IMG/VR virus record: IMGVR_UViG_3300036980_000702
Span: 1-63,293 of that record
Reading direction: 5' to 3' (one strand)
DNA length: 63,293 nt
From: a virus
Lineage: Duplodnaviria > Caudoviricetes
Shown here: piece by piece, positions 1,688-62,883 of the stretch
How positions within the stretch are numbered: position 1 is the first letter of the stretch
Layout of the letters: every line of letters begins with the position of its first letter
The notes under the pieces: model-generated
What the model was told of the DNA's origin: nothing
The model's input: only the letters and a program-made list of their open reading frames with translations
Database searches by the model: none
Program-made: the position numbers and the translations under genes

Positions 1688-1816
1688 ACGGACCTTAAAT
1701 CAATCGGCATTGATTCAAAATTGGTTAATGACCTCAAGAGCAAAGTTGCGCAAAATGGAGAATCCATTAAGGAGGTAGTCGAAAAACTAATCCGTGATTA
1801 TCTTAAAAAAAATTAG
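1688..1816 (+). CDS. 42-aa RHH protein with an ACG start (absent from the ORF track)
   Basis: AGGAGGAG RBS then ACG-DLKSIGIDSKLVNDLKSKVAQNGESIKEVVEKLIRDYLKKN*. Confidence 0.6.
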   Translation, partial: TDLKSIGIDSKLVNDLKSKVAQNGESIKEVVEKLIRDYLKKN

Positions 1817-1835
1817 GAGAGGAGAAAAATTATTA

Positions 1836-3875
1836 ATGGAATTCAAAGATTTTAAAAAATTACTACAAGACAATTTTAGCTCGATTGCTCAAGAAACCAC
1901 CCATTTATTCGAAGTTGAGTTAGACAAGGACGAACTTTGGAACCTGTACTTAGATAGCTTTCCCACCGGAACCAATGAAATTTATCGGGAAAGACGGGAA
2001 CACGATTGTAGTTGCTGTCGGCATTTTATTAAGGCTATCGGCAATGTGGTCGTTATTAAGGACAACACAATTAAAACTATCTGGGATTTTGAAATTGACG
2101 ATCCTGTTTATGCTCCAGTAGTAAAGGCTTTATCGATGTTTGTTAGGACAAAGGTAGTTGCCGATGTTTGGTTTAGCAGAGAGGCTAATGTCGGAACGGA
2201 TAGCAACTATGAGGAGTCAACAGACAAGAGTATTATTCTTTGGCATCACTTTTCTCTAAAGCTTCCGAAGCAGTTTGTTAATAACAGAAGTGAATCTTTG
2301 GGAGAAATTAAAGGTTCCTTCAGAGACACTAGGAACGTGTTTAAGCGCTCCCTGGATGAGATTACCGAGGAAAGTATACTGACGGTACTTGAATTAATAT
2401 CCCAGAATTCCCTTTATAAAGGTGAGGAGTGGAAGGTCGTATTGCTTGAGTTTCTGAAATTCAAACGGGCTTACATGGCTTTACCGTCTGAGCATGAGAA
2501 AGAGAACTACACTTGGGAGCAGTCAGTCAAACTCGGTGGAGCCATGGGCAGAATCAGGAATCACAGTATCGGTACACTCCTGGTTAATATCAGCGAGGAT
2601 ATGGATTTAGATGAAGCAGTTAAGAAGTATGAAGTAATTGTGGCTCCAGAGAATTACAAACGGCCACAGGCCATCTTTACCAAAAAGATGTTGGAGGAAG
2701 CTAAAAAAACTATTGAAGAACTCGGATACCTGGATTCGCTTGGCCGAAGATATGCAACACTAGATGATATTACCGTAAATAATATCTTATTTTCTAATCG
2801 GGATTCAGCGAAACGAATTACCGGGGTCTTTGAAGAAATGGCTGGAGAAGTCGCGATTGACCCGAAGAAGTTTTCTAGGGTTGAAGAAATTTCAGTTGAT
2901 GATTTTTTGAATAATGTTTTGCCGACTGCGAAAGAACTTGAAATATTCCTAGAGAATCGGCACTCAAACAGTATGGTTTCTCTAATTGCACCGGAAAACG
3001 CTGGTACTCCAAGCATGTTTAAATGGAATAATCCTTTCAGTTGGGCGTATGCCGGGAATATTACCGATAGTTCGATGAAAGGGAATGTCAAGATGGCTGG
3101 CGGGAATGTCGAAGGAGTTCTTCGATTCTCGATTCAGTGGAATGACAGTGAATTCAATCCTAACGATTTCGATGCTCACTGCGTTGAGCCCAATTGGTAT
3201 GAGATTTATTACCCCAATAAGATGTCCTTAAGTCCAACAGGTGGAATGCTCGATGTTGATATTATCCGTCCAGTGAAAAGTGTTCCTGCTGTTGAAAATA
3301 TCACTTGGGCCAATACCAAGAAGATGGCAAAAGGTGTCTACCAATTCTTTGTCGAATGTTATTCGAATAATGGTGGACGGTCTGGGTTTAAAGCCGAAAT
3401 CGAATTTGGCGGCCAAATCTATGCCCTTGAATATAACAAGGAATTAAGACAAAAAGAACATGTTCAAGTGGCAGAGGTTACTTTTGACGGTACTAGCTTT
3501 AGTATTGTAGAGAAATTACCGTCTAGCATATCTTCACGAAAAGTGTGGGGATTACAAACCAACCAGTTTGTACCAGTTTCCGTGATGATGTACTCCCCGA
3601 ATTACTGGGACGAACAATGGGATATCGGTCATCGGCACTACTTCTTTATGCTGAAAGGTTGTGTTAATCCGGAAACCCCGAACGGCTTTTATAATGAATT
3701 CTTGAAAGAAGATCTATTGCAACATAAACGAGTCTTTGAGGCACTTGGTAGTAAGATGAGAGTTAAAGATGTCGAGGATCAGTTATCCGGTGTCGGATTC
3801 TCCTCGACCAAGCGAAACGAAGTCTTGGTAAAAGCAAAAGGTCAAACTGAACGAGTAGTCAAAATTAAATTTTAA
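1836..3875 (+). CDS. Large conserved phage protein with a Cys motif and a YfaP/DUF2135-like domain
   Basis: HDCSCCRHFI motif; LRFSIQWND...DFDAHCVEP...GGMLDVD...VENITW; AGGAGAGGAG RBS before the ATG at 1836. Confidence 0.7.
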   Translation: MEFKDFKKLLQDNFSSIAQETTHLFEVELDKDELWNLYLDSFPTGTNEIYRERREHDCSCCRHFIKAIGNVVVIKDNTIKTIWDFEIDDPVYAPVVKALSMFVRTKVVADVWFSREANVGTDSNYEESTDKSIILWHHFSLKLPKQFVNNRSESLGEIKGSFRDTRNVFKRSLDEITEESILTVLELISQNSLYKGEEWKVVLLEFLKFKRAYMALPSEHEKENYTWEQSVKLGGAMGRIRNHSIGTLLVNISEDMDLDEAVKKYEVIVAPENYKRPQAIFTKKMLEEAKKTIEELGYLDSLGRRYATLDDITVNNILFSNRDSAKRITGVFEEMAGEVAIDPKKFSRVEEISVDDFLNNVLPTAKELEIFLENRHSNSMVSLIAPENAGTPSMFKWNNPFSWAYAGNITDSSMKGNVKMAGGNVEGVLRFSIQWNDSEFNPNDFDAHCVEPNWYEIYYPNKMSLSPTGGMLDVDIIRPVKSVPAVENITWANTKKMAKGVYQFFVECYSNNGGRSGFKAEIEFGGQIYALEYNKELRQKEHVQVAEVTFDGTSFSIVEKLPSSISSRKVWGLQTNQFVPVSVMMYSPNYWDEQWDIGHRHYFFMLKGCVNPETPNGFYNEFLKEDLLQHKRVFEALGSKMRVKDVEDQLSGVGFSSTKRNEVLVKAKGQTERVVKIKF

Positions 3876-4550: not shown

Positions 4551-5099
4551 TCAATAATCCAAAATAGCCCTCACAATAGCGTCCTTGTAACCTTCCCGGT
4601 ACTTTTTGAAATTTTCCACATCCGCCGCATTGTCGTGGAAAAACAACTCAATCAAACAGGCCGGGGCGTTGGTCCGGTCTAACTCTGCAAGATGACCGCC
4701 GTCCACCGTGGTCTCTTTGGTATCGGGATCTTCTTTGCCTCCCCTAATCAAAAGACCGTTGGCCTGGTGTAGATACTTTACCAATAGATCGGCCATCCGG
4801 TCGCCGCCGATGCTATCTTTGTGTATCCAGGCTTCCATTCCCCGGGCCTTACCCGATTCCTTCCCGCCCATCGCGTTAGAATGTAAGGCCAAGTGGAAGT
4901 CAGGTTTTGTTTTGTTCGAATCGACGATAACTTCGGTCAAAGTCATATCCGGTCGATTAATATAAATTGCAATTTGTCCTAATCTCGGATCTTTAATGAT
5001 ATCCTTAACCAATTCCTGCATCCTTGATTCTTCGGATACTCCGTCAACCCCGATGTTATTTTCTTGTGTCGATGCCGATAAATAAAGCTTTTTAATCAT
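4551..5099 (-). CDS. Endolysin, N-acetylmuramoyl-L-alanine amidase (Amidase_3)
   Basis: LYLSASTQ...E, ALHSNA, GMEAW and LIELFFHDN motifs; no cell-wall-binding domain. Confidence 0.9.
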   Translation of the reverse strand: MIKKLYLSASTQENNIGVDGVSEESRMQELVKDIIKDPRLGQIAIYINRPDMTLTEVIVDSNKTKPDFHLALHSNAMGGKESGKARGMEAWIHKDSIGGDRMADLLVKYLHQANGLLIRGGKEDPDTKETTVDGGHLAELDRTNAPACLIELFFHDNAADVENFKKYREGYKDAIVRAILDY

Positions 5100-5874: not shown

Positions 5875-6732
5875 TTAATACCTTATAATATATTTAACCG
5901 CAACCCAGGGCTGAAGGTTATTGTGAGCCGTTCCAAGGCCAGATGAACTTGTAACTGGAGCGCTATATGCACCTGTATCACTTCCTCCGCAAGGCGGACG
6001 TGTTCCACTAGGAGTAGTTGGAGTAGAACCTCTTGGCGGGTACACATGACTATGCGTACCATTCTCGCCGGCTGTTAAAGCGTGGGTTTCTGCGCCGCCG
6101 TTGGCACCAAGGATATCTGCGTTAGGGTCGGTTACGTTATTCGCCGGAGTGCCACCTTCTCCGTAATCGTCCATGCTCAAAAAGACTCTTCCTCTTCCTT
6201 GTGGAGCTAGTAGTATTTTCTTATGCAATGCCCAGTCGGCTTCTGCGCTTGTTAGTCTAGTGCTAAGAACTCCTGCATCCGTATAAATCGGTGCAGTAGT
6301 ATTACTGTAGTCAATCCAGAGTTTCTGGAATAGGTTAAAGCAATCAGCATTGGCCCGGGCTGTTGCATTGCTCGAGGCATCACCAATTGATCTGCCATCT
6401 AACCAGAGCCATGACCCGTAAGCGGGAAGATTTTGCCATGGATGGGTCATAATATGACCAACTTCATAAATCATATTATATATAGCCATTGGTAAATTAG
6501 CATAAATAGCCCCATCGTCTTTTAATTGTATGCTTCCATTTACATTTTGTTCAAGACCATTCCCGACAACATCGGCATTAATTTTTATCTTAGTTACCGA
6601 ATCGTCATTAAGAATTTCCGTAGTCACTGACTTATCGGTTAAATTGTCAGTCCCTACTTTTTTGTTAAACATATCTTGCAGTCTTACCATTACTTCCCTA
6701 ACCGTCGATGCTGCATCATTAAATTTACTCAT
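5875..6732 (-). CDS. Tail fibre protein with a tail-collar domain
   Basis: WLWLDGRSIG...GRGRV...GGAETHALT..E...HSH...AHNNLQPWVAVKYIIRY. Confidence 0.85.
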   Translation of the reverse strand: MSKFNDAASTVREVMVRLQDMFNKKVGTDNLTDKSVTTEILNDDSVTKIKINADVVGNGLEQNVNGSIQLKDDGAIYANLPMAIYNMIYEVGHIMTHPWQNLPAYGSWLWLDGRSIGDASSNATARANADCFNLFQKLWIDYSNTTAPIYTDAGVLSTRLTSAEADWALHKKILLAPQGRGRVFLSMDDYGEGGTPANNVTDPNADILGANGGAETHALTAGENGTHSHVYPPRGSTPTTPSGTRPPCGGSDTGAYSAPVTSSSGLGTAHNNLQPWVAVKYIIRY

Positions 6733-6780
6733 AAATAAACCACCTTTCAAAAATTAAAGGGAGGTTTTTGGCCTCCCTTT

Positions 6781-9700
6781 TTACCATTTGTAAGTTGAAC
6801 CCCAGGACGATGATGATGGGGATTTTTTGGGCTTTGAAATAACCACTCCCATTTTTTGAAGTTCAAAAGTTAATTGTTGATATTTTTGAAAAGAAAGTGA
6901 TTGTTTAAGACCATCTAAGATCTCCAACCTTCTTTCAAGGCTTGGGGCTTTTAAAACCATACTCAAATTGCTATCTGAAATTGCTTTGGCCGCATAACGA
7001 TGATATCGATTTTTAAACTCATTTAATGTTTCATCTTTCCCTATGGTTTTATTCAACTTAAGTTGTGCATAAAGAGTTTTAATATTGTTCATGTCAGGAA
7101 TAGACTTGATTTTTTTAACTGAATCCACAATTATGTTTTCGACTTTAAGAGATTGTTGCGCTTTTTGTTTTGCTTCCTCATCTTGTTGCGCATATATTTT
7201 TTCCTGTTCTCCTTTGTCGGAATATCTCAGGAAGGAACCAAAAATATTTAATCCAGGCATTTTTAAAGCCTTTTCAATTTCGGTAGCGTTACGGTCCGAA
7301 TAGTCTCCAGGGTTATAAATTACGCTACCTCCGAGACTTTGCCATGAATTTTTTCCTAACGCTATTGTAGACGGACCAATTCCTGCTATGAATTGTTTTT
7401 GCGGTATTATTGGATTACCCCGGAATTCATCAATTGGGTTTTTACCTTTAATGTAATAAGTGTAAAGATTCCCCGCAACTTGAAGAACCGGGTTTAGACT
7501 ATAAGGATTATTTTGAGAAACAATATCCAGCGCCCCTTTATCTCCGGTAAATTTTCCGTGAGATAATGCCCAGGTGATTGCGCTCCAAGTTTGGCCCTCG
7601 TAGTCTTGCGGAATTCTCAAATACATTGCCTTACCGTTTTCAGCAATAGCAAGAGGAATGATATTATAGTTCTGTTTGTCGTATTCCGGGATTTTATCGA
7701 TAAGATCTTTTAACTCTTTGCTTCCGGCCACCGCTGCACCAACTAAAATCATTTTCGGAATAACATTGATCATCATGGTTTTCCAAATATAGCGAGAAGG
7801 ATTATCATTGAATGATTCGGCCATCGACCGGATTCCTTCTTTTCCAATATTGGAAAACATAAAAACATTATTGGTTATTTGATGTAATGCCCCCTGCCTT
7901 CTTGCGTCAGGAGTTCCGATTCTGGTCCTGACGATGTGCCCGATCTCTTGTTGTGAAAGATTGGTTTCGTTTTTTAGATATTTAAATCCGGTAACTTTTC
8001 CGGTCATTTCCGACACACGACCAACATCATTTAAAAATCCCCATGCTTGCTTTAGCTTGCCCTTCGCTCCTTTGTATTGTTCGGCCTGATTTGGGTTAAC
8101 TTGCCATTCGGTGGATAACCGTTCAATTTCATTGTCAAAACTAACATCCTTCCCAGAGTAAATTCTATCCGGGTTAAGCATGTAATTTTTTTTCATGGTC
8201 ATTATGTCTGCGCTAGTGTAATCTCCAAAAACATATTGGTAAACTTCTCGAACGGCTTTGTTATAGTACCCCAAAAGCTTAGGAACATCTCTTAATTGAA
8301 CCTGAGAAACGTTTTTTGTAGTGGAAGTAAAATCTTTTATTAAATTCCTTGCCATCCAGATCGGATTCCTTGATACTAAAATTTGTTTAATTGGACTTGT
8401 TAGGTTAGACAACAACTCAGCAAGTTTTGTGGCCTCTACCGGGTTTCTTTCGAATGTGGCGGCAATTTCTTTGTCGATATAGTATGACTTTGGTTTGCCG
8501 TCAACCAGAACAGTGAATACGGTTTGATTCGGATCTTTAGGATCTTTGGGACTCATTCCTTGTCCGTTAAATCCTAACTCCGCATCAGTTGCATAATTAC
8601 CTTCTTTAAGAGAGTCAATAACTGCACGTTTGGCAGTATTCAGTTTCGCGGCTCTCATCATCGAAATATCTTGCAATACGGTAGCAATAAAAGGATTTTC
8701 GATGTCTGACAAAGTACCTACCTGGTGGTAAATCTTCGCCGACATTCCACCCCCGATTTTATCTTCCAAATAGTGGGCCACGCTAAATTTAGCATAGTCT
8801 TTGTTTTCCCGCATGGTTTTAATTAACTCCGGTGAATACATCCCGGATTCTTCGGCGCGGTCAATTAATTGTTCGTGAATCGTCCGGTAATCCTTAATAA
8901 TACTTTCGAGCTTTCCAAATTTTTCTTGGCCTAACTTTGCGCTCAAATCTTTAAGCATCTGTTTTGCCGCCGCTTCGTCAAGTCCACGAGGATTGGCGAT
9001 AGTAGATCTTTCGGTTGAAGCCCGCTTCGCCAACATATATACTCCGATATCTTCAACATTCAGATCCGCATCGTTCATCGGAGATAATACCGACTTACTA
9101 ACATCGTCCATATATGCCCCGACTTCGGCGGCAATATACTTAGTTTCTTCGATGTTCCATTTGGCTTTTTGACCCAATTCCTTACTTTTACCGCCTTGCT
9201 TAATCCCCTTGTTAAGAAGTTCCAAAATAGGGTAATCTCTATCAATAAGGTATTTGGAAATAGTATCCGATATTGTCAAAGGTTCCTTCTGAGCCCGTTT
9301 TCTTGCTTCTTCACGCAACGGATTGGTTTCCTTAAGCATTTGACGAGCACCTTCGAGTCGATGTTGCCCAACAGCATCAGGATTAGTCAGCCGGTTTTGA
9401 ATATCTTCATAGGCGGCTTTAAACTCTGGCTTTTTATCAAGATGTTTGAAAAAAGCATTATGAAAAGTTGGAGCCTCTTTTTCCAACATCTTCGGATCAT
9501 TCAGTAACACTGATACCGCATCGGCATATAGTTCTTTTGACGAATTCCGGTATAAGGTGTATTTAGGATCTTTCTTCGGGTCAAACGGCTTCCATTTCAT
9601 TGAAAGATCTTTTAGTTCCTTGATAACATTGTTTTTAACTACCGGTGGTTCTTCATCCAAAGATGATTTCATGTACTTCTTCAGTGCAGCGATCCGTCCT

Positions 9701-12700
9701 AAAATGTTACCCCTGGACAATGTTTTTTCAGGAAAATAATCGTTCATATGGCCGATTTCGTGAGCCATTACCCTTGTGGCTAACTTGGAATCTTTGAAAA
9801 TGTCTGCCCGTAATAAAATATTGCTCCCCTTTTCGTTCGCTTGGAATCTCCCCAAAGCATCGCCCAGTTTTTCTTTTACATGCGGAGCCTTTCCTTCATT
9901 GATTTCTTTTGCCAATTCGACAAGTTCAGGGAGTTCTATTGGGGAACGTTCTGAAACGTTTTGATCAATTGCGTAACCGCCCATATCAGCATTAGATAAA
10001 CCCTTAGGGGTCTTGACTTGACTCTCTTTTTTAATCTCTTGCGGTAATTCTTTGTTTTGGAGAATACCTTTTTTAACGTTATTGATATCTTCATACCCCA
10101 ATGCCAACCCCAACTCCCGATGTCTCTTTGGTTCGGCATTATAGTTTTCCATAACTGCAATTAGATCCTTGTTTGTCTTGGCGATAACTGGTAGGTTATC
10201 GTTAGTCATCCCAAAAAACAAACCATTATCTTTAGATATTTTCTTGAGGTTATCAATTTCTGCCTCGGTTTTTTCTAGCCCAAGATATGCCGGTTTATCA
10301 CCGGAAACAACCTGATTAATTTCCCAAGCACGAGATTTATTTAGTAATTCAGGGGTATTCGGTTTACCACTCTGCTCAAGCTTTTTGATTTCGGACCAAT
10401 AAGGATTTTTTTGGATATATGGATTGAAAGTACCGTACTTTTTAGAATGTCCTAAAAGTACTTTTGATTCCTTCACCAACTCCGGGTAATCTTTAAGGAC
10501 TTCGGGAGGGACGGGTTTTCCTTCTTGCAACGCCAATTTAGAAACATAATCATAAGCAATAGGATATTTTTCTTTTAACCACTTTGAATCTTCTAATAAA
10601 GTCGTATAAGCTTCGGTTAAATTTTCATTTGGTCGATATTGACCGTTTATTCCGTTTTGAATTTTGCCATTCTCCTCGATTGGGCCAAACATTTTTTTGT
10701 TTTGCACAAGATCCCAAAACGTATTGTCTTTTGCTGCAACTTCTTCTAAACCGGAGTTATGGGAAATTTCATGAGAAACGATGTGCTTTTTAGAAACTTC
10801 GTTTTTAATCTCGAAAAACTTCGGTCCAATTTCTATTGTTCCATCTATTTTAGTTGTAGCCTCTTTTATAAGCGATGGGTTAAATTTAAATCCTTTAGGA
10901 GATTTGTTTTGAAACTCTTCCTTCGTCATCTGCCACGGTTCTTTACTACCACCCTCCACAACCTCACCAAACGCCCTAGGATTGGTTTTAACGGGTTGGT
11001 TTGGAGTTGGGGGAGTGTTGTTAACCACTTTAATTTGATCGGATGAAAAAGGAGAATAACTTTTGTTACCTTGTTCTATAGCTACTATTCCATCATATCC
11101 ACTATCAACAAGATAACCTCTTTTAAAAAGTTCAGAATTAAGAATTTCAAATGCTGGTTTTGGAGTTTCTTTTGAAAGTTTTTGACTTAATCCTTCTTCA
11201 ACAAAATCAGCCTGTTTTTTACCCGTAGCAACTTCTCCGTAGCTAAGACCAAGTTTATCGGCAAATTCTTTCCGGGTCATTTCGGTTTCTAAATTGCCTA
11301 ATCTTGTTACGTCAAAAGGTTTTTTAATTGATAAGTAAGATTTATATATGGTCGGATTCTTACCATTATACTCTGGTCTTGTAGCATAAGTTTTGGCATA
11401 TTCGAGAGAATCGGTAAACCATTGATGAGCAGCAAACGTATTGAATCCAGTCTTATCACCACCGGTTCCATGGTAAACAACCAACGGTTCCCCTTTTTCA
11501 TCGACTACTTTCGAATTTTCAAACCACTCTTTATCAACAGGAGGAGAAACAGAAACCGGCTCAGTTTGATTCGGTTTCGTTTGTTGTGATACAATTTTCA
11601 TTAAATTTCCTACATTACCTGTATTTTCGATCCCTTTGGTATTTGCCCCGATTCCGTTAGTTCCTTCAAGAAGGCTAGGGGGCTTTTCCCCTCGGGTACC
11701 TCTAAGACCTTGTTCGGTCCTGAGTTGTTTTGCGGCAAGAAGATTTGTGTCGGCTTCTTTGACATCTTTCCCAATTCCATAACTGAAACCTCCTCCCCTT
11801 ATTTCCATTGTCTGCCCGTCTGGAGTTGTAACTTTAATTATACTACTTTTCAAAACTTCGTCAACTTTTTTCATGGCATCATGGGTCTGTTCGGGAGTAT
11901 CGAATTGAGCAAAAAATTCATCACCCTGTTTGTGAAATACGTCTTCATGACCCAGACTTTTTAAACCGGTAGCCATATTTTTAAGTAACTGATCACCAGC
12001 CTCGTGACCGTAGTTGTCATTAACCCATTTAAGACCGTCAACATCCGCCTCAAGTTGGACCGGTTTCCGAAGTATAGGATTGTTCAATACTTCCTGGTAT
12101 ACCCGGTCATTAAGCATCCCGGTTTTGTCTTGAGTAAACAAGGCCGATTTCATTTCTTCTTGATTCATATTCTGAAGAGTTTCCCGAAGACGATCATTTA
12201 TTCTTCTCTCCGGGGTAACTTCCGACGGTCCCGTCACCGATTCCAATGCAATATTATTAACGTCAGCCGGTAGATTCTGGACTGGTTGCAGTTGTGCTTG
12301 CGGCCGTTGTTGAATGCCACGTTTTCCGCTTAAAGCCAACCCGGTTCCACCCAATAACGTTGCGGTACCAATCCCGGTTAACCCCGCTTGGACAGACTCC
12401 ACCCCGGCTTGTTTAACTTTGTTCCAATCCAATTGACCATTGGTGATAAACTGATCGGGCTTATAGATTACCTGCTTCGATAAACCGCTTACAATCTGAG
12501 ATGTGGCTTCCTGAATACCTTCCGCCGAAATGTTTTTCAGGTAACTAACCAATGATTGTTTGAACGGCTGAGTAAAAGTCTTTCCAAAGTTGCCGAGAGG
12601 TATCTTTTCTGTCAACCCTTCAACCACTCCCATGATGCTTCCATATGCCAACTGTTGGAGTACGCCTGCCCCTTCTTTCTCGGCTTCCTGTGCATACTGA

Positions 12701-13182
12701 CCAACGGCAATTACCCCAAAGGTTAACGGTGCAACTGGTCCAGTAGCCATTGCCCCGACGATTTGAGGGATGGGTTTGACGAGATTAAAAGCACCCTTTT
12801 CGATGTTACCGGATCTCTCCATTGCTACGTCTTGTTCTGCTGCTTTTTGATTCATAAAATCACGGACGTTAATATCAACATCTGCGCTCCGTTGATAGAC
12901 GTCTTTGATCGGTTTGGTTAAGAACGTATCCGGGATAACGTTTGCCATCAACTGTTTTTGAAATTTATCAGCATTGGCCAACCCAGAAATTAACCCCGCG
13001 CCGCCAGCGATTAAACCACGCCCAACCGCTCCAGGAAGATTTAATAGTTGCTGACCTAATGCCGGTTGTTTAAATTTTTGTTCGTATTGATCGATAGCGG
13101 AAAAATCAAGTTTGTTCTCAGGTTTTTTCTTCTGTAAATCTTTTTCGTATTGATCAACCATTGAAAAATCTAATTTCGCCAT
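6781..13182 (-). CDS. Large ejection/polyvalent protein (GGDEF, ART-like, two HExxH domains, LPD38-like C-terminus)
   Basis: DVDGLKWVNDNYGHEAGD...QGDEF; PLVVYHGT...GYDGI; HEISH and HEIGH...ELYAD; IPEYDKQNYNIIP...YLRIPQDYE; last gene of a podoviral ejection trio. Confidence 0.85.
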   Translation of the reverse strand: MAKLDFSMVDQYEKDLQKKKPENKLDFSAIDQYEQKFKQPALGQQLLNLPGAVGRGLIAGGAGLISGLANADKFQKQLMANVIPDTFLTKPIKDVYQRSADVDINVRDFMNQKAAEQDVAMERSGNIEKGAFNLVKPIPQIVGAMATGPVAPLTFGVIAVGQYAQEAEKEGAGVLQQLAYGSIMGVVEGLTEKIPLGNFGKTFTQPFKQSLVSYLKNISAEGIQEATSQIVSGLSKQVIYKPDQFITNGQLDWNKVKQAGVESVQAGLTGIGTATLLGGTGLALSGKRGIQQRPQAQLQPVQNLPADVNNIALESVTGPSEVTPERRINDRLRETLQNMNQEEMKSALFTQDKTGMLNDRVYQEVLNNPILRKPVQLEADVDGLKWVNDNYGHEAGDQLLKNMATGLKSLGHEDVFHKQGDEFFAQFDTPEQTHDAMKKVDEVLKSSIIKVTTPDGQTMEIRGGGFSYGIGKDVKEADTNLLAAKQLRTEQGLRGTRGEKPPSLLEGTNGIGANTKGIENTGNVGNLMKIVSQQTKPNQTEPVSVSPPVDKEWFENSKVVDEKGEPLVVYHGTGGDKTGFNTFAAHQWFTDSLEYAKTYATRPEYNGKNPTIYKSYLSIKKPFDVTRLGNLETEMTRKEFADKLGLSYGEVATGKKQADFVEEGLSQKLSKETPKPAFEILNSELFKRGYLVDSGYDGIVAIEQGNKSYSPFSSDQIKVVNNTPPTPNQPVKTNPRAFGEVVEGGSKEPWQMTKEEFQNKSPKGFKFNPSLIKEATTKIDGTIEIGPKFFEIKNEVSKKHIVSHEISHNSGLEEVAAKDNTFWDLVQNKKMFGPIEENGKIQNGINGQYRPNENLTEAYTTLLEDSKWLKEKYPIAYDYVSKLALQEGKPVPPEVLKDYPELVKESKVLLGHSKKYGTFNPYIQKNPYWSEIKKLEQSGKPNTPELLNKSRAWEINQVVSGDKPAYLGLEKTEAEIDNLKKISKDNGLFFGMTNDNLPVIAKTNKDLIAVMENYNAEPKRHRELGLALGYEDINNVKKGILQNKELPQEIKKESQVKTPKGLSNADMGGYAIDQNVSERSPIELPELVELAKEINEGKAPHVKEKLGDALGRFQANEKGSNILLRADIFKDSKLATRVMAHEIGHMNDYFPEKTLSRGNILGRIAALKKYMKSSLDEEPPVVKNNVIKELKDLSMKWKPFDPKKDPKYTLYRNSSKELYADAVSVLLNDPKMLEKEAPTFHNAFFKHLDKKPEFKAAYEDIQNRLTNPDAVGQHRLEGARQMLKETNPLREEARKRAQKEPLTISDTISKYLIDRDYPILELLNKGIKQGGKSKELGQKAKWNIEETKYIAAEVGAYMDDVSKSVLSPMNDADLNVEDIGVYMLAKRASTERSTIANPRGLDEAAAKQMLKDLSAKLGQEKFGKLESIIKDYRTIHEQLIDRAEESGMYSPELIKTMRENKDYAKFSVAHYLEDKIGGGMSAKIYHQVGTLSDIENPFIATVLQDISMMRAAKLNTAKRAVIDSLKEGNYATDAELGFNGQGMSPKDPKDPNQTVFTVLVDGKPKSYYIDKEIAATFERNPVEATKLAELLSNLTSPIKQILVSRNPIWMARNLIKDFTSTTKNVSQVQLRDVPKLLGYYNKAVREVYQYVFGDYTSADIMTMKKNYMLNPDRIYSGKDVSFDNEIERLSTEWQVNPNQAEQYKGAKGKLKQAWGFLNDVGRVSEMTGKVTGFKYLKNETNLSQQEIGHIVRTRIGTPDARRQGALHQITNNVFMFSNIGKEGIRSMAESFNDNPSRYIWKTMMINVIPKMILVGAAVAGSKELKDLIDKIPEYDKQNYNIIPLAIAENGKAMYLRIPQDYEGQTWSAITWALSHGKFTGDKGALDIVSQNNPYSLNPVLQVAGNLYTYYIKGKNPIDEFRGNPIIPQKQFIAGIGPSTIALGKNSWQSLGGSVIYNPGDYSDRNATEIEKALKMPGLNIFGSFLRYSDKGEQEKIYAQQDEEAKQKAQQSLKVENIIVDSVKKIKSIPDMNNIKTLYAQLKLNKTIGKDETLNEFKNRYHRYAAKAISDSNLSMVLKAPSLERRLEILDGLKQSLSFQKYQQLTFELQKMGVVISKPKKSPSSSSWGSTYKW

Positions 13183-17083: not shown

Positions 17084-18151
17084 TTATGCATTTGGTCCGA
17101 CTAAAAATGTTTGGGAGTATATTCTCATAGTTCTACTAACGCTTGTTGTTGATAAATCATAATTAAACATCTCACTAAGACTATCGGAAGTTAAGGGTTC
17201 ATATTGAGAAGAAACTCCAAGGCTAACTCCATCAATAAAGAATTCAAAATGTATCCCATTCCAAACTATTTCATATGTATGTTCTGAATTATTTAAAGTA
17301 AACACCGGGCTAAAAGTAATGGTTTGAGTATTGGAACCATTATAACAAATTCCTTTCATTATACTGCCATCGAAATAAAAGTCGGCACCTTTTGAAGTGG
17401 TTTTACATAAACCGATATGCATGGAAGTAATGCTGGTAGCGTAATCTAATTTAATTGTAGTTCTCATTCTCATGATTCGTGCGAATGTAGGAATTGTTTC
17501 TTTGCCATTCGAATCATATACCCTACGAACCGGACGGGAAGCAACAAAGTTTGATGATCCAGAACTACCAGTAGAATATGCATCATACTCCAAATTACTA
17601 TACGAGGTCCCATTGCCAGTACCAGTAACTATCATTGCCGATTGGCGACCAATTTCGGGAGTCAATATTAAACCTTGGAATCCATATTGAAATAGATTCT
17701 TATTAAATCCGGTTACTGTTGCCGCGTTCAAGTTTGCAACTTCAGTAGTGCTTGTTACGACCAAGGGAGGGGTTCCGGTCGGAACGTCGGACGTAAAACT
17801 CTTGGCTCGAAGGTCGTAATCTCCAATATCCAGGTTTCCGGTGGCGGTTAATGAGGCGGTGCTTACTGGTCCGGTATGGGTTCCTGTTGTATTACCGGTT
17901 ACGTCTCCGGTCAGATTTCCAGTAACATCCCCGGTCACCGGCCCGATAAAGCTTGTCGCAGTGATTGCTCCGGCCGAAAACTCCCCGGACGCTCCCCGCT
18001 TAACTACCTTATTCGCGGTGTTAGTTGCAACACAGTCGGCGATTAATTGAACAACTGTGTCAAAGTAAAGTTTGATCGCCGAAGTCAAATTATTCAACAT
18101 CTGGTATGTAAGTTTTTCTCTTGTGAAATTCTTTGGTATTGTAAAGGCCAT
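17084..18151 (-). CDS. Tail fibre/spike protein
   Basis: TGDVTGNLTG repeats, GTPPLVVTSTTEVANLNA motif, C-terminal lectin-like beta domain. Confidence 0.8.
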   Translation of the reverse strand: MAFTIPKNFTREKLTYQMLNNLTSAIKLYFDTVVQLIADCVATNTANKVVKRGASGEFSAGAITATSFIGPVTGDVTGNLTGDVTGNTTGTHTGPVSTASLTATGNLDIGDYDLRAKSFTSDVPTGTPPLVVTSTTEVANLNAATVTGFNKNLFQYGFQGLILTPEIGRQSAMIVTGTGNGTSYSNLEYDAYSTGSSGSSNFVASRPVRRVYDSNGKETIPTFARIMRMRTTIKLDYATSITSMHIGLCKTTSKGADFYFDGSIMKGICYNGSNTQTITFSPVFTLNNSEHTYEIVWNGIHFEFFIDGVSLGVSSQYEPLTSDSLSEMFNYDLSTTSVSRTMRIYSQTFLVGPNA

Positions 18152-24875: not shown

Positions 24876-26210
24876 TTACGCCGAATAAGCGTCTTTCAGG
24901 TCATAGATGGTTCCGCCTACCTCGAAGTTCTCGCAACCGTATTCCATAGTACCGGAAAGGTAAGCCGTCGCTCCGTCATAACCATTGAGTCTCTGCCATA
25001 GTCCGCCGTTCTCGGTCACAAAGTCGATTTCCCTGGTCAAATACTTGGTCATAAGTTTGATTGGGTTAATTGAAATTGCATTTGAAAACATCAACGGAGG
25101 GCAAACCATCTTAACGCCTTCGCACATAACGGTCTGGTAGGGCCAACCTTCGATGGTTGCGTTTTCCATAACGTACATCCCGGAATTTTGTTTCATAACG
25201 ATAAACTTATTCATGATTGCTTTTTCGGCAACCATAACAAGGTCGTTCAGTTTGGCGTTTCGAACGTTTTGCAGGAAGTCTAGCACTTCGACAATATTCA
25301 GGATCGTCCACTCTTTCGGGATTCCGGTGGCTGCCCCGGTTTCAATTAATCCAGCATCACTAACCCGGCATACGTGGGGAATAAGGTATTCATTATTTGT
25401 AACAGTTCGATCCGCATCGGCGCTACCCCAAAGTTTGTTAGTGGTTTTACCAAACAAGGACTTCATACCTTCGAATTCCTTGTTATACCCACCCCTTTGG
25501 TAAATCAATTGACCGTCCGCCAGCAAAGCGGCCAGAGTATCGGCGGCGGCATTGGTTGCACATTTAAGTTTGATCACATTGCTACCGGAAATAGTCTGAA
25601 TTTGTAGTCCTTCGGTTGCAGTTCCGCTAACTGAAGCGTGACCGGAAGTTAAAATGTCAACAAATATTCCCCTTTTGAAGTACCGCACCGGCCAACGAGT
25701 TCCACATATAGCAGTTCCGCCGCCATCGTCAACCGTAACAGTTACCCAAGTGTCAGTTTCGTTTGTAACCGTCGCCGACGCAACACAGGCAATAGGAGTA
25801 ACCCCGGCATCGCCGATTCCCATTCTTTCAACGGTGCATTTTAACGCAGATTCAACGCCCCGCATTTCTGCGTCAACTAGTTTAATAGCCCCGGTTCTAA
25901 AACCATCGGACATATCAATCAGTTTTCGCCAGTACTTGATCTGCGCGTCAATGTGTTTGGGGGTTCCCCGGTACGTCTGGAACTGGCATTCTCCGGGAGT
26001 CGGTAAAGCCCCGGTAACATCTGAACTCATTCCGATACCCCACGAATAACCAGTCTGGACCTTAACATTAAAGTTGCTTCCAACCTTCTCAATTTTATTG
26101 GCCGCTTTCAAAATACTCGTCCAAAACTCTTCCTCATAAATAGTAGATTGTAATCCGGGTATATAAACTTCGTATAATACATCATTAATGCTATTAATAT
26201 CCATACTCAT
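24876..26210 (-). CDS. Major capsid protein
   Basis: 444 aa, after the scaffold gene, followed by a terminator; MGIGD and FEGM motifs. Confidence 0.75.
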   Translation of the reverse strand: MSMDINSINDVLYEVYIPGLQSTIYEEEFWTSILKAANKIEKVGSNFNVKVQTGYSWGIGMSSDVTGALPTPGECQFQTYRGTPKHIDAQIKYWRKLIDMSDGFRTGAIKLVDAEMRGVESALKCTVERMGIGDAGVTPIACVASATVTNETDTWVTVTVDDGGGTAICGTRWPVRYFKRGIFVDILTSGHASVSGTATEGLQIQTISGSNVIKLKCATNAAADTLAALLADGQLIYQRGGYNKEFEGMKSLFGKTTNKLWGSADADRTVTNNEYLIPHVCRVSDAGLIETGAATGIPKEWTILNIVEVLDFLQNVRNAKLNDLVMVAEKAIMNKFIVMKQNSGMYVMENATIEGWPYQTVMCEGVKMVCPPLMFSNAISINPIKLMTKYLTREIDFVTENGGLWQRLNGYDGATAYLSGTMEYGCENFEVGGTIYDLKDAYSA

Positions 26211-32890: not shown

Positions 32891-34507
32891 CTATAAAATA
32901 TCACTTGGACTGACCTTTTTAATCCCCGATTGTAGCCGAGTATTCCGATAGACAAATGCTTCTCCGGATTCTGCACCGTACTTCTCGACGATGAGGTCGT
33001 ATTCGGATTTAGTTGGTGCCGGGTAATCTTGTCTTAACTCATTTAGCGCCTGGCTCGTTGTGTCAGCCTGATCCTTATAACTAGATTTTGGAAATGCCGT
33101 CATTTCAGCCAAGTACTCCTCGACCCATGGAAATAAAGCGGGATGAGGTATATAAACATTTCCAGATTCAATAAGATAACTCACTGCCGCCAATCTGGCA
33201 ATTTTATCACCATCTGGCTCGCGTGGAACTATCCCGGATATTTTCCTTTGCAATGTTTTAATCGCCGCCGCTCCGTTAGCTTTCTTTTCAACTAATTTGT
33301 GCGAAGTATCAGGATGTTTGATATTTAGGTCAATGAAAGCCTCTAGCGTTTTAGGAAAGTCCATTTGTTCTCTAATCTGATCAAGCAAAAATCTATCAGC
33401 TACCCACTGGCCCCATTCCTCCCCAACTACAAAAGAAGAGTTTTCCGTATCATCAAAACTCATATCCCAAGATTGAATTTTAATATTAAACTTTTCAGGG
33501 AGATCGATTATCGGACAGCTAAAAAATGACCCATCTTCCATCTTAACGAGGATAGATGGTAATTCCCTTCCCTTTGGTTTCCAATATCTCCACCAATGAC
33601 GCTTAATCATTCCTCCACCTCTAGGAACCGGCCTTTGCTGATATTGTCCAGCATAAGCATAACTACCAAGACTTTTCTTGTAACTTTCAACTTCCTGTCG
33701 CCCGATTCTTTCGGGCCAAAGCAATTCTTTTTCTTCGGTGCGAGGATCATTAAATCCTATCGGGCTGATTACCATTGCCTTTTGCTCATATTCCATAGGC
33801 AAACATAAATGAATATATCCGGCTTGTTTTAAAGCTTCTCCAGAAACATCTCCTTCATGTATCCTTTGCATAACTACGACAATAGATCCAGTTTTAGGGT
33901 CGTTTAGTCGAGAGGGGATAACCTCTTTAAACCACAAGATAGTTGATTCCCGAATTGCTTCTGATTCCCCATCAATTACATTATGGGGATCGTCAATGAC
34001 TATGATATCTCCACCTTCTCCAGTTCCCATTCCACCTGTTGAAGTTGATTGCCGGTATCCTGTTTTATTGTTCTCAAACCGCTTCTTCTCATTTTGGTCT
34101 CCGGTTAACTGGTAAACATCTCCCCAGTTTTTCTGATACCATTCGGATTGAATAATGCGTCGACATTTTAAACTGTCTCTTGTGCTCAGAACGTCAGCGT
34201 AAGAAGCAAAAAGCCACCGACAAGATGGCTTTCCATGTGGCCCCCATACCCAGGTTGGCCAGAAAACAGCCACCGAAAGTGATTTCATACACCGGGGAGG
34301 GATATTAATTAATAATCGCTTGATTTGACCGTCTGTAACAGCTTGTAAGTGTTCGCTGATTGCGTCAAGATGCCAGTTAGATATAAATAGTGTGGCCGGT
34401 TCGACCACGTTCCAGGCTTGTTTTCCATAGTCAGCAAGACTTCTCCGGCAAAGTTCCTTCTTTAACGCCTCTTCTACTGCCGGGAGTTCGTTAGGGTTTA
34501 AGTTCAT
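32891..34507 (-). CDS. terL: Terminase large subunit
   Basis: INIPPRCMKS (Walker A), IVIDDPH (Walker B), VVMQRIH, YQQRP, SWD, EKKANG, DQADTTSQ. Confidence 0.95.
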   Translation of the reverse strand: MNLNPNELPAVEEALKKELCRRSLADYGKQAWNVVEPATLFISNWHLDAISEHLQAVTDGQIKRLLINIPPRCMKSLSVAVFWPTWVWGPHGKPSCRWLFASYADVLSTRDSLKCRRIIQSEWYQKNWGDVYQLTGDQNEKKRFENNKTGYRQSTSTGGMGTGEGGDIIVIDDPHNVIDGESEAIRESTILWFKEVIPSRLNDPKTGSIVVVMQRIHEGDVSGEALKQAGYIHLCLPMEYEQKAMVISPIGFNDPRTEEKELLWPERIGRQEVESYKKSLGSYAYAGQYQQRPVPRGGGMIKRHWWRYWKPKGRELPSILVKMEDGSFFSCPIIDLPEKFNIKIQSWDMSFDDTENSSFVVGEEWGQWVADRFLLDQIREQMDFPKTLEAFIDLNIKHPDTSHKLVEKKANGAAAIKTLQRKISGIVPREPDGDKIARLAAVSYLIESGNVYIPHPALFPWVEEYLAEMTAFPKSSYKDQADTTSQALNELRQDYPAPTKSEYDLIVEKYGAESGEAFVYRNTRLQSGIKKVSPSDIL

Positions 34508-34631
34508 TTGGTTTCCATCCAGATCCAAAATCGAAACACAAGTAACTCTAAAATAAATCCGCAGGCACATATTAAAATAACTTGGTAATCATATAGATCA
34601 AAATGAAAGTTTAACGATTCTATGATTTCTT

Positions 34632-45925: not shown

Positions 45926-46551
45926 TTTTTCTCCTTTATCAATAAAAATTGCTCCCCTATATATCGGGAGTAGGCCGGGGGAATGGCTTCATCAAGTTCT
46001 GTTTTAATCATCCAGTCAATTTGCATTGCTTCTTTTATTTCGGCAGTTGTAGGTTCTTTTCTTGTTGGATCAGTTTTTCTTCTCGGAGATCCTGAAACCA
46101 AAACCGGTGTTTTTCCATGATTGCAAGGAGGTAACATGTAAGTATGTAACCACGGTATTTCAAAATAACGATGCCTAAAAAGATTAAGCCCAAACATTGT
46201 GCCACATAACATAACCGGATTATTAAGTAAATGACGCGCCCCGCCCACATTTTCAATTACATACGGTTTTCCAGACATTTGAATTAACTCCCGCGTAAAT
46301 CCAATCAAATCCGGGTGGTTTTCTTTTTTATCGGCTGGCGTCAAAACAGAATACTTTTGACAAGGCGGAGACGCAGACACAAGATCAAACTCCTTTAAAA
46401 ATTCTGGGTCTAATTTTGTAACATCGGCTTGGATAAACTCAAACGGGTAATGGGGTTGAAAATCGATATCGATTCCGGTAACTTCAAATCCCGTTTGATG
46501 ATATCCCATAGACATCCCACCGGCCCCACAATACAAATCTAATATCTTCAT
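45922..46551 (-). CDS. Short C5-cytosine DNA methyltransferase-like protein
   Basis: DLYCGAGG, SPPCQ, IENV, RHRYFE and EAIPP motifs. Confidence 0.85.
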   Translation of the reverse strand: MKILDLYCGAGGMSMGYHQTGFEVTGIDIDFQPHYPFEFIQADVTKLDPEFLKEFDLVSASPPCQKYSVLTPADKKENHPDLIGFTRELIQMSGKPYVIENVGGARHLLNNPVMLCGTMFGLNLFRHRYFEIPWLHTYMLPPCNHGKTPVLVSGSPRRKTDPTRKEPTTAEIKEAMQIDWMIKTELDEAIPPAYSRYIGEQFLLIKEKK

Positions 46552-49697: not shown

Positions 49698-50213
49698 TTA
49701 TATTCCGTTTAATTTAACAACATTACCAGTTAAATACCCGGCCCGTTTGTTAATAACATCATTCTTTTCTCTGTCAAAATTGGCCTCATAAATTCTCATA
49801 AATTGACTTCTAAGATATTCTTGATTTTCCGATTCAAACATTTCCCGGAGTCCTATTTGATCAACCGTTTTTTCGATAATAGGATTGCTCCAAGTTGGTC
49901 TTTCCCCAGCATATTGGAACCTTATGGAGTTTGTCCCACTTGTAATGTATTTCCTAACTTCTCCCCACGCTTCCTCAGGCGAAGCTAATTCTGACGTTGA
50001 AAAACTCATTGCCGCTTCTCGGATCTCTGCAATTGTCGGAAAAAATTTTGATGTGATGATTACTTTTGTCAATGCCTTTTCCGCCAGTTCGTAGGGAATA
50101 TCTTTTAAAAACTTTTCCCAAATAACAACCGTTGGTTCCGGGTCTTTCTCTTGCATATTTGGAAAACTAGCCAAAGCTAATGATACAAGTTTTAGAATTT
50201 CAGGTCTTTCCAT
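49698..50213 (-). CDS. Replicative helicase loader/inhibitor (G39P-like)
   Basis: W...LKDIPYE...SKFFPTIAEIR...EAWGEV. Confidence 0.85.
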   Translation of the reverse strand: MERPEILKLVSLALASFPNMQEKDPEPTVVIWEKFLKDIPYELAEKALTKVIITSKFFPTIAEIREAAMSFSTSELASPEEAWGEVRKYITSGTNSIRFQYAGERPTWSNPIIEKTVDQIGLREMFESENQEYLRSQFMRIYEANFDREKNDVINKRAGYLTGNVVKLNGI

Positions 50214-62875: not shown

Positions 62876-62883
62876 GTATTGTT

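What the first reader, a model, noticed from the sequence alone, without database searches (positions are those of the whole stretch)
11710..12210. Diguanylate-cyclase (GGDEF) domain inside a virion ejection protein
Seen: DKTGMLNDR, DVDGLKWVNDNYGHEAGDQLL, HKQGDEF (QGDEF at 11914-11928) and FSYGIG within the 2133-aa protein. Known: DxDxxKxxNDxxGHxxGD and GGDEF form the catalytic signature. The guanine-selecting Asp of ND is retained, and the RxxD inhibitory site is absent (GHED). Inference: the phage may inject a feedback-free c-di-GMP synthase along with its DNA, altering motility, receptor state or nucleotide signalling before any gene expression. The G->Q change means activity must be tested.
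Basis: partly seen in the sequence, partly recalled or inferred. Interest (0 to 1): 0.85.

Follow-up and report, generated by a model that had tools for sequence, protein, structure and literature searches.

The report
GGDEF cyclase module in phage polyvalent protein
A giant multi-enzyme protein of an uncultured phage, probably carried in the virion and injected with the DNA, contains a real and intact-looking copy of the bacterial enzyme domain that makes the signal c-di-GMP; this design was predicted from sequences in 2017 and still seems untested.

Summary
ORF 6781-13182 (-) encodes 2133 aa. Residues about 320-505 are a genuine GGDEF domain: Pfam 37.7 bits against a cut-off of 23.8, a clade profile against solved cyclases at E 4.6e-18, and an AF2 model with pLDDT 90 whose best fold matches are all diguanylate cyclases. 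The motif is QGDEF at 11914-11928.

The domain belongs to a large clade found mostly in giant proteins, with signature H-x-S-G-D-E-F. Its metal, base, phosphate and general-base residues are nearly invariant, and P0001 keeps all of them. The first motif position varies (S119, G34, Q4 of 175). RxxD occurs in only 6 of 175 copies. A clade-specific N-terminal extension is predicted to make a homodimer (0.59 against a best control of 0.36).

The host protein is a polyvalent protein. A variable cargo region (GGDEF, ART-PolyVal, an HExxH motif) sits on a conserved C-terminal scaffold of about 1060 aa (HExxH plus a divergent LPD38), which 69 other giant proteins share with different cargo. The gene lies in the structural block. 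Its nearest cultured counterpart lies between tail tubular protein B and a tail fibre gene.

GGDEF domains in polyvalent proteins were described by Iyer et al. 2017, so this is a new member of a known kind. Activity, product and virion delivery remain untested.

The parts
6781..13182 (-). Gene for the 2133-aa polyvalent protein P0001
   Evidence: Single open frame. Pfam finds GGDEF and ART-PolyVal.
11668..12225 (-). GGDEF domain of the H-x-S-G-D-E-F clade with its clade-specific N- and C-terminal extensions (aa 320-505)
   Evidence: Pfam core aa 377-488; clade alignment; AF2 model with pLDDT 90.1; Foldseek top hits are all diguanylate cyclases; clade profile against PDB E 4.6e-18.
11914..11928 (-). 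QGDEF active-site hairpin (aa 419-423)
   Evidence: Coordinates. Register Q419 = first G. In the clade, G420 is kept in 174, D421 in 173 and E422 in 172 of 175 copies.
12139..12210 (-). Clade-specific N-terminal extension (aa 325-348: E-R-R motif, R333, M339), predicted dimer element
   Evidence: Conservation: R326 148/175, R327 159/175, R333 151/175, M339 154/175. Residues 6-30 of the model form the predicted homodimer interface.
11014..11502 (-). ART-PolyVal ADP-ribosyltransferase domain (aa 561-723)
   Evidence: Pfam PF18760, E 1.7e-17, 64.9 bits against a cut-off of 31.2.
10759..10773 (-). HEISH (HExxH) motif in the variable cargo region (aa 804-808), possible zincin peptidase
   Evidence: Motif found. 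Only weak, sub-threshold metallopeptidase hits. Not shared with scaffold homologues.
6853..10035 (-). Conserved C-terminal scaffold (aa about 1050-2110) shared with 69 other giant proteins that carry different cargo
   Evidence: the search for homologous proteins, 69 hits with E from 0 to 4.5e-19; coverage map.
9748..9762 (-). HEIGH zincin motif at the start of the scaffold (aa 1141-1145)
   Evidence: An HExxH motif is present at this place in 65 of 69 scaffold homologues.
7285..7704 (-). Divergent LPD38-like region (aa about 1827-1966), preceded by a hydrophobic segment at aa 1801-1821
   Evidence: No direct Pfam hit in P0001. The homologue P0183, 42% identical across this stretch, has LPD38 at 28.1 bits against a cut-off of 27, at residues that align here. 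P0012 is sub-threshold and P0146 scores 118.6 bits. Hydrophobic segment.
12700..12762 (-). N-terminal hydrophobic, Gly-rich segment (aa 141-161), possible membrane-inserting helix
   Evidence: Kyte-Doolittle window maximum of 1.66. Inference only.

Best explanation
P0001 is a phage polyvalent protein. A conserved C-terminal scaffold of about 1060 aa (zincin-like HExxH motif, hydrophobic segment, divergent LPD38) carries an exchangeable N-terminal cargo region. I infer that the scaffold places the protein in the virion and takes it out with the DNA. In this phage one cargo module is a GGDEF nucleotide cyclase of a clade found mostly in giant polyvalent-type proteins (consensus H-x-S-G-D-E-F; here H-K-Q-G-D-E-F). 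The most likely mechanism is as follows. Two copies pair through the clade-specific N-terminal extension (E-R-R motif and helices, aa 325-349). Each binds Mg-GTP through D380, D382, D421, N388, D397, K485 and R488. E422 acts as the general base across the dimer to make c-di-GMP. Because there is no RxxD I-site and no sensory domain, synthesis would be unregulated and not product-inhibited, raising host c-di-GMP at or soon after entry. Shown: domain identity, fold, residue conservation, architecture and gene context. Predicted by a model: dimerisation. Inferred: activity, product, packaging, injection and physiological effect.
For: Domain identity. Pfam GGDEF scores 37.7 bits against a cut-off of 23.8. 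A profile of 32 clade sequences hits 46 solved GGDEF chains at E<=1e-8, best 4.6e-18, and aligns 'yhisGDEf' to 'grYGGEEF'. The AF2 model has pLDDT 90.1 and pTM 0.81. All listed Foldseek matches are diguanylate cyclases, best SiaD 7e6g at E 3.7e-9.

Selection on the active site. Among 175 domain copies from 167 proteins, D380 is kept in 175, N388 in 175, G396 in 175, D382 in 168, K385 in 166, D397 in 154, G420 in 174, D421 in 173, E422 in 172, K485 in 174 and R488 in 165. 145 of 175 copies keep all eight key residues, and P0001 is one of them.

The first motif position varies in the clade: S119, G34, H6, K6, Q4, T2 and four others. It covaries with position 417 (H-x-S-G against R-x-G-G). Active SGDEF and AGDEF cyclases are known (PMC3974145, passages).

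RxxD occurs in only 6 of 175 copies.

Homodimer model with GTP and Mg: 0.59 against a best control of 0.36. The mark was reached by 20 of 30 solved pairs and 1 of 23 single chains. The runs agree in at least 90% of contacts and the partner's pLDDT is at least 83. The interface uses the conserved N-extension, R360 and Q419. 8 of 167 proteins carry two tandem copies.

Delivery. 134 of 167 clade proteins have at least 1000 aa. 69 giant proteins share the scaffold with other cargo, including lytic transglycosylase PF01464 in 3. The gene lies in the structural block next to a tail protein. The Pelagibacter podophage Baldr counterpart (2329 aa) lies between tail tubular protein B plus a 606-aa protein and the tail fibre gene. 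Iyer et al. 2017 predicted packaging and injection for this class.
Against: No experiment of any kind bears on this protein. Q at the first motif position is rare in the clade (4 of 175). In the only systematic test I read, on VCA0965, only A, G, M and H were active at that position, and Q and S were not, so Q419 could cripple catalysis. The arginine two residues before the motif in canonical cyclases is His here (H417), as in 138 of 175 clade copies, and its effect is unknown. TM-scores to solved cyclases are moderate (0.50-0.60, rmsd 3.8-8.6 A). The dimer pass may reflect memory of solved GGDEF dimers. I could not inspect whether the two active sites face each other. The job also differed from its calibration (own alignment, ligands riding along). 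P0001 itself has no direct LPD38 hit and no lytic transglycosylase domain. The scaffold has no sequence match in the PDB at E<=1. The closest scaffold relatives (54-57% identity) mostly lack GGDEF (1 of 6), so the module is dispensable for the scaffold's role. The host is unknown (best TerL match 43%), so whether it uses c-di-GMP is unknown.
Confidence: 0.55

Rival explanations
1. The domain is an active cyclase but its relevant product is not c-di-GMP. It could be another cyclic or linear (oligo)nucleotide, or the point could be GTP consumption. It would then act as an anti-defence device that jams, decoys or pre-empts nucleotide-based immune signalling rather than ordinary c-di-GMP physiology.
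For: Iyer et al. proposed interference with host nucleotide signals as one role. Clade members vary at the base-selecting position (N16, T3, S1, H1 of 175). P0024 has Thr in both tandem copies together with SGDEF, the Hypr-like combination that gives cGAMP in GacA (PMC6456294). The standalone homologue in Pseudomonas phage MP1412 sits beside a gene annotated as KlcA antirestriction protein. GGDEF-related polymerases that make decoy nucleotides exist on the host side (Panoptes, PMC12657218, abstract start in a search listing only).
Against: P0001 itself keeps N388 and D397, the pair that gives GTP specificity in canonical enzymes, and the NxR arginine R360. Nothing in the sequence points to another substrate.
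Confidence: 0.17
2. The domain is catalytically dead or nearly so because of the G-to-Q change. It would serve as a nucleotide or c-di-GMP binding module, or as a structural or dimerising module of the giant protein.
For: Q is rare at this position (4 of 175). Q was not among the active substitutions in VCA0965. Degenerate GGDEF domains often act as receptors (background passage of PMC3974145). The predicted dimer is held by the N-extension and would exist without catalysis.
Against: Every other catalytic residue is retained in P0001, which is unexpected for a decayed site. The clade tolerates S, G, H, K, Q and T at this position while G420, D421 and E422 stay nearly invariant. There is no RxxD site for c-di-GMP binding.
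Confidence: 0.18
3. The protein is not delivered by the virion. It is a late-expressed cytoplasmic or assembly protein, and the cyclase acts late in infection or in a lysogen or carrier state, for example changing biofilm or motility of the infected cell, as suggested for standalone phage GGDEF genes.
For: Virion presence is untested. Standalone homologues exist as ordinary genes outside the structural block in Yuavirus and Vojvodinavirus phages. LK3 lysogens were reported to form more biofilm (PMC8471281, passages; no causal test). This phage has a partition-protein gene, which hints at a plasmid-like carrier state.
Against: The gene lies inside the structural block between a 459-aa ORF and a tail protein. 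The scaffold is shared with proteins that carry lytic transglycosylase and DNA-modifying cargo, which makes sense at entry. In a cultured podophage the gene lies between tail tubular protein B and the tail fibre gene. From recall, that is where T7-like phages encode their ejected internal virion proteins.
Confidence: 0.1

Closest known systems
GGDEF-bearing polyvalent proteins of phages and prophages (Iyer, Burroughs, Anand, de Souza, Aravind 2017, PMC5512222; example Acetonema longum WP_004096050.1)
   Same: A GGDEF domain embedded with unrelated enzymatic domains (here ART-PolyVal and HExxH motifs) in one giant polypeptide encoded among phage structural genes. The same proposal applies: packaging, injection and use of cyclic nucleotide signals.
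   Different: That paper called the GGDEF association 'not very widespread'. Here 1015 cluster representatives match at E<=1e-10, and 134 of the 167 proteins examined have at least 1000 aa. This member has QGDEF, a different set of partner domains and a scaffold with only a divergent LPD38. The paper's supplementary architecture lists could not be read.
Canonical diguanylate cyclases (PleD, WspR, DgcR, SiaD)
   Same: Same fold and the same metal, base, phosphate and general-base residues. The enzyme is expected to work as a dimer.
   Different: No receiver or sensor domain. No RxxD I-site. His instead of Arg two residues before the motif. Gln instead of the first Gly. A shortened stretch between the TG-x-N-x-R motif and strand 1 (gaps). 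Clade-specific N- and C-terminal extensions.
Active cyclases with a non-Gly first motif residue: ECA3270 (SGDEF) and VCA0965 (AGDEF)
   Same: They show that the first position can vary without loss of c-di-GMP synthesis (PMC3974145).
   Different: QGDEF has not been tested. In VCA0965, Gln at this position was not among the active variants.
Standalone phage GGDEF proteins of Pseudomonas Yuavirus (MP1412 gp43) and Bordetella Vojvodinavirus (LK3, CN1, CN2)
   Same: Same clade, 34-37% identity. MP1412 has R-V-S-G-D-E-F and the same C-terminal K..RE..G.R..RG..PP tail.
   Different: About 156 aa, a separate gene outside the structural block, lacking the E-R-R N-extension, and next to a KlcA antirestriction gene. 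They must be expressed after entry rather than delivered.
T4 Alt and other virion-injected enzymes; T7 gp16-type internal core proteins
   Same: The concept of an enzyme packed in the particle and ejected with the DNA (Alt: passages of PMC5512222). The Baldr counterpart lies between tail tubular protein B and the tail fibre gene, which from recall is the gp16 position of T7-like phages. Three scaffold homologues carry a PF01464 domain (from recall a lytic transglycosylase domain, as in T7 gp16).
   Different: No detectable sequence similarity to these proteins. No PDB match to the scaffold at E<=1. Fold similarity was not tested.
YIP peptides of Pseudomonas phages that activate the host cyclase YfiN
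   Same: Phage factors that raise host c-di-GMP (passages of PMC11461919; abstract start of PMC8085984 in a search listing), so raising c-di-GMP is a known phage strategy.
   Different: YIP is a small peptide that acts on a host enzyme. Here the phage would bring its own enzyme.

Membership tests
GGDEF domain (Pfam PF00990) | Score above the curated gathering threshold of the family model | tested here: met
   37.7 bits against 23.8, aa 377-488. 43 bits in the six-frame search of the record.
GGDEF domain (Pfam PF00990) | Palm-like GGDEF fold | tested here: met
   AF2 model with pLDDT 90.1 and pTM 0.81. 94 PDB matches at E<=0.001, and all listed matches are GGDEF cyclases, with TMq 0.50-0.60.
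Catalytically competent diguanylate cyclase | Canonical GG(D/E)EF motif | tested here: not met
   The motif is QGDEF: first Gly replaced, G420-D421-E422-F423 kept. The clade as a whole has S at this position in 119 of 175 copies.
Catalytically competent diguanylate cyclase | Metal-binding acidic residues, base-binding Asn and Asp, phosphate-binding Lys/Arg, general-base Glu | tested here: met
   D380, D382, D421, N388, D397, K485, R488 and E422 are all present in P0001 by alignment. Residue roles are taken from PMC6456294 passages and from recall of PleD.
Catalytically competent diguanylate cyclase | Homodimer with two half active sites | tested here: inconclusive
   The complex model passes (0.59 against a best control of 0.36; 20 of 30 solved pairs and 1 of 23 single chains reached the mark). 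It is a prediction, and the active-site geometry was not inspected.
Catalytically competent diguanylate cyclase | Synthesis of c-di-GMP from GTP | not testable with these tools
   Needs an enzyme assay.
Product-inhibited cyclases (I-site) | RxxD five residues upstream of the motif | tested here: not met
   No RxxD in aa 405-419 of P0001. It is present in 6 of 175 clade copies.
Polyvalent proteins (Iyer et al. 2017) | Several unrelated enzymatic domains in one polypeptide | tested here: met
   GGDEF and ART-PolyVal, plus two HExxH motifs.
Polyvalent proteins (Iyer et al. 2017) | Class-specific domains (ART-PolyVal, LPD domains) | tested here: met
   ART-PolyVal scores 64.9 bits against 31.2. 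LPD38 is supported only through homologues: P0183 scores 28.1 against 27 and is 42% identical to P0001 over the region.
Polyvalent proteins (Iyer et al. 2017) | Encoded among virion or packaging genes of a phage | tested here: met
   TerL, major head, tail fibre and tail protein genes lie on the same strand around it. The record is a complete virus genome with terminal repeats.
Polyvalent proteins (Iyer et al. 2017) | Packaged in the virion and delivered into the host | not testable with these tools
   Needs virion proteomics or infection assays. Only positional and architectural support is available.
T7 gp16-like internal virion (ejection) proteins | Sequence or structural homology to known core proteins | tested here: not met
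   No PDB sequence match at E<=1 for aa 1174-2133 or aa 521-1194. The fold was not compared. Only the gene position resembles them.

The most novel reading that the evidence does not exclude
The clade found here, mostly in giant polyvalent-type phage proteins, is a self-dimerising, sensor-less, feedback-free cyclase that is pre-loaded in virions. It floods the cell with c-di-GMP (or, in members with Thr, Ser or Asn at the base-selecting site, another dinucleotide) within seconds of DNA entry and before any phage gene is expressed. This would shut down pili, flagella or receptors against competing phages, or pre-empt nucleotide-based immunity. The conserved E-R-R N-extension would be a new dimerisation device that replaces the regulatory domains of bacterial cyclases.
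Probability: 0.3. Interest if true: 0.7.

Novelty: new member of a known kind. Interest (0 to 1): 0.4.

Why it matters
If it is active and injected, this would be a second-messenger synthase delivered as protein by a virus, able to reprogramme bacterial behaviour before transcription of the phage genome. The clade is large: 1015 representatives at E<=1e-10. It is compact and lacks regulatory parts, so it is a convenient experimental entry point and a possible source of constitutive cyclases. In the papers searched I found no test of the 2017 prediction. For this window alone, the finding adds one more example with an unusual QGDEF motif.

Tried and rejected
1. Megablast of the gene against 50,697 phage records found no match, so there is no near-identical cultured phage.

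2. Direct LPD38 detection in P0001 failed at E<=1 for the whole protein and at E<=5 for the C-terminal piece. It is supported only through homologues.

3. PDB sequence searches of aa 1174-2133 and aa 521-1194 found nothing at E<=1.

4. The GDEFF register suggested by a single-sequence alignment was rejected in favour of QGDEF.

5. Host inference failed. The best TerL match is 43% (Aeromonas phage 56). A scan of 185,579 species genomes with the clade pattern gave 523 confirmed matches, of which the 80 kept come from several distant bacterial groups and one archaeal MAG. The best was 36% identity in a Methylococcaceae MAG, and many may be ordinary bacterial cyclases. This gave no host call.

6. 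Earlier notes of this scan near this place or with similar sequence: none.

7. Weak metallopeptidase Pfam hits around HEISH and HEIGH are all below their cut-offs, so I call them HExxH motifs and not confirmed peptidases.

8. Literature searches for an experimental test: 'polyvalent proteins'+GGDEF gave 3 papers. phage-encoded+'diguanylate cyclase'+virion gave 19 papers, 15 listed, none on a virion-borne cyclase by title or abstract start. Yuavirus+GGDEF gave 1. 'phage-encoded diguanylate cyclase' gave 1, about the YIP peptide. GGDEF+'ejection protein' gave 0.
Full report
**The object**

The window is a complete 63,293-bp virus record with direct terminal repeats. ORF 6781-13182 on the minus strand is a single open frame of 2133 aa, P0001. 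QGDEF lies at 11914-11928. The stated span 11710-12210 corresponds to aa 325-491.

**Is it a GGDEF domain?**

Yes.
- Pfam PF00990 matches aa 377-488 at E 2.3e-9, 37.7 bits against a cut-off of 23.8.
- NCBIfam diguanylate-cyclase models match down to E 1.5e-12, all below their equivalog cut-offs, as expected for a distant domain.
- phmmer against the PDB finds 42 GGDEF chains at E<=0.01.
- A profile of 32 clade sequences finds 46 chains at E<=1e-8, best 4.6e-18.
- An AF2 model of aa 320-520 built on that alignment has mean pLDDT 90.1 and pTM 0.81.
- Foldseek against the PDB returns 94 matches at E<=0.001. All listed ones are diguanylate cyclases, best SiaD 7e6g at E 3.7e-9. TM-scores are moderate, 0.50-0.60.

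**Register of the motif**

A single-sequence ungapped alignment pairs GDEFF with GGEEF. The clade alignment contains members with R-x-G-G-D-E-F in the same columns. The profile alignment to solved cyclases pairs 'yhisGDEf' with 'grYGGEEF'.

**The clade**

A full HMMER scan of 1.84 billion representatives gave 13,425 hits at E<=0.001, 1015 at E<=1e-10 and 62 at E<=1e-30. I pooled the best 150 of these with the 23 large proteins, which gave 167 proteins and 175 domain copies.
- 134 of the 167 proteins have at least 1000 aa, and the median length is 2133 aa.
- Conservation of key residues: D380 175/175, D382 168, K385 166, N388 175, G396 175, D397 154, G420 174, D421 173, E422 172, F423 159, K485 174, R488 165.
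- 145 of 175 copies keep all eight key residues, and P0001 is among them.
- The first motif position is the variable one: S119, G34, H6, K6, Q4, T2 and four others. It covaries with position 417, H (138) with S and R (36) with G. The clade signature is therefore H-x-S-G-D-E-F, and QGDEF is a rare variant of it.
- RxxD within the 15 residues before the motif occurs in 6 of 175 copies and not in P0001.
- The clade also has an N-terminal extension ([ED]-R-R, R333, M339) and a C-terminal tail (R494, R497, G498, P501) that the solved cyclases do not align to.

Residue roles come from passages of PMC6456294. The Asn of 'ND' and the Asp of 'GD' read the base. The third motif residue holds Mg. The fourth is the general base acting across the dimer.

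**Dimer**

A two-copy model with GTP and Mg scored 0.59, against a best control of 0.36. The mark was reached by 20 of 30 solved pairs and by 1 of 23 single chains. The runs agree in at least 90% of contacts, and the partner's pLDDT is at least 83. My own alignment and the riding ligands make the calibration only rough, and solved GGDEF dimers may be remembered by the model.

The interface is made of model residues 6-30 (aa 325-349, the conserved extension) packed against 38-52 (aa 357-371, including R360), 94-95 and 100 (Q419). This suggests that the extension replaces the dimerising regulatory domains of bacterial cyclases. I could not check whether the half-sites face each other. Eight of 167 proteins carry two tandem copies, mostly with both sites intact, which fits a need for two domains.

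**The carrier protein**

Pfam also finds ART-PolyVal at aa 561-723 (64.9 bits against 31.2). Two HExxH motifs lie at aa 804 and 1141.

The C-terminal part, aa about 1050-2110, is shared with 69 other proteins of 1488-3593 aa, with E from 0 to 4.5e-19. The HExxH at aa 1141 is present in 65 of the 69. Their N-terminal regions differ. Precomputed Pfam labels include:
- GGDEF in 3 of 69;
- PF01464 in 3;
- PF18763 in 4;
- PF18823 in 3;
- PF04002 in 3;
- PF00176 in 2;
- PF04607 in 1.

From recall, and not named by any search, these are lytic transglycosylase, DdrB-like ParB, InPase, RadC, SNF2 and RelA/SpoT. Five of the six closest scaffold relatives (54-57% identity) have no GGDEF label. The pattern is a conserved scaffold with an exchangeable cargo slot.

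P0001 has no direct LPD38 hit. The homologue P0183, 42% identical over 914 aa, has LPD38 at 28.1 bits against 27, at residues that align to P0001 aa about 1827-1966. P0146 scores 118.6 bits.

Among the 22 other large proteins that share the GGDEF clade domain, 8 carry LPD38, 4 carry ART-PolyVal and 3 carry PF01464.

**Context**

On the same strand lie TerL (32891-34570), a major head protein (24876-26210), a tail-fibre-like protein (17084-18151), a 459-aa ORF directly upstream of P0001, and a tail protein directly downstream at 5875-6750.

The best cultured match to the scaffold is a 2329-aa protein of Pelagibacter podophage Baldr (aa 1181-1869, 25% identity, E 9e-37). It lies after tail tubular protein B and a 606-aa protein and before the tail fibre gene. 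From recall, that is the position of the ejected internal core proteins in T7-like phages. This is positional support only. There is no detectable similarity to solved core proteins.

**Cultured relatives of the domain**

tblastn found 52 phage records. Most are Pseudomonas records (39; MP1412 is a Yuavirus) and Bordetella records (9; placed in Vojvodinavirus by PMC8471281). In MP1412 the homologue is a standalone gene of about 156 aa with R-V-S-G-D-E-F and the same C-terminal tail, but without the E-R-R extension. It sits next to a KlcA antirestriction gene. For the Bordetella phages, a paper links the gene loosely to the higher biofilm of lysogens, without a causal test (PMC8471281, passages).

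**What is known**

Iyer et al. 2017 (PMC5512222, passages read) described GGDEF domains in polyvalent proteins. They called them 'not very widespread' and proposed interference with host nucleotide signalling or action against rival elements. They predicted that phage polyvalent proteins are packaged and injected. Their supplementary architecture lists were not available to me.

Active SGDEF (ECA3270) and AGDEF (VCA0965) cyclases are known. In VCA0965 only A, G, M and H worked at the first position (PMC3974145). That leaves QGDEF uncertain.

Phages are known to raise host c-di-GMP by other means, through the YIP peptide acting on YfiN.

I found no experimental test of a polyvalent-protein GGDEF in five searches. 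Earlier AI notes of this scan report the same architecture: 19 findings in at least 17 other genomes, 8 of them shown. They reach the same verdict. I treat them as leads, not as support.

**Verdict**

This is a new member of a known kind.

- the size of the clade;
- its H-x-S-G-D-E-F signature, with H/R and S/G covariation;
- the near-absence of RxxD across the clade;
- the conserved N-extension predicted to dimerise;
- the scaffold-plus-cargo anatomy of this particular family.

Noticed in passing
window 11014-11502 (-), aa 561-723 of P0001: An ART-PolyVal ADP-ribosyltransferase domain lies about 60 residues after the GGDEF domain in the same cargo region (Pfam, 64.9 bits). Its catalytic residues were not examined.
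   Followed up: no
window 9748-9762 and 10759-10773 (-): There are two HExxH motifs. The one at aa 1141 is kept in 65 of 69 scaffold homologues and may be an autoprocessing peptidase of the kind Iyer et al. proposed. The one at aa 804 is specific to the cargo region.
   Followed up: partly
P0024 (1628 aa, unnamed representative), both tandem GGDEF copies: Both copies have Thr at the base-selecting position (D397 equivalent) together with SGDEF. This resembles the Ser/Thr plus GGDEF combination of cGAMP-making Hypr enzymes. In the clade this position is N in 16, T in 3 and S in 1 of 175 copies.
   Followed up: partly
L002 6022-6492 (Pseudomonas phage MP1412 gp43): A standalone member of the same GGDEF clade, about 156 aa, sits directly upstream of a gene annotated as KlcA antirestriction protein. 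This suggests an early or anti-defence gene neighbourhood.
   Followed up: partly
window 60397-61395 (-) and 50200-50994 (-): A partition-protein homologue (phrog_691, E 3.4e-42) and a replication-initiator homologue are present. They hint that this phage may persist as a plasmid-like prophage.
   Followed up: no
window 62792-62975 (-): Two adjacent tRNA genes, tRNA-Tyr (GTA) and tRNA-Ser (TGA), lie near the right end of the genome.
   Followed up: no
window 1794-3875 (+): A 693-aa protein on the opposite strand matches phrog_1735 (unknown function) almost end to end, at E 1.5e-269. It is a highly conserved phage protein with no assigned role.
   Followed up: no
window 46548-47243 (-) and 4551-5099 (-): There are two separate muralytic candidates: a transglycosylase or endolysin-like protein of 231 aa in the early region, and an endolysin-like protein of 182 aa downstream of the tail protein. 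P0001 itself has no lytic domain.
   Followed up: no
window 53970-54923 (-): A homologue of a Cas4-domain exonuclease (phrog_1990, E 8.5e-20).
   Followed up: no
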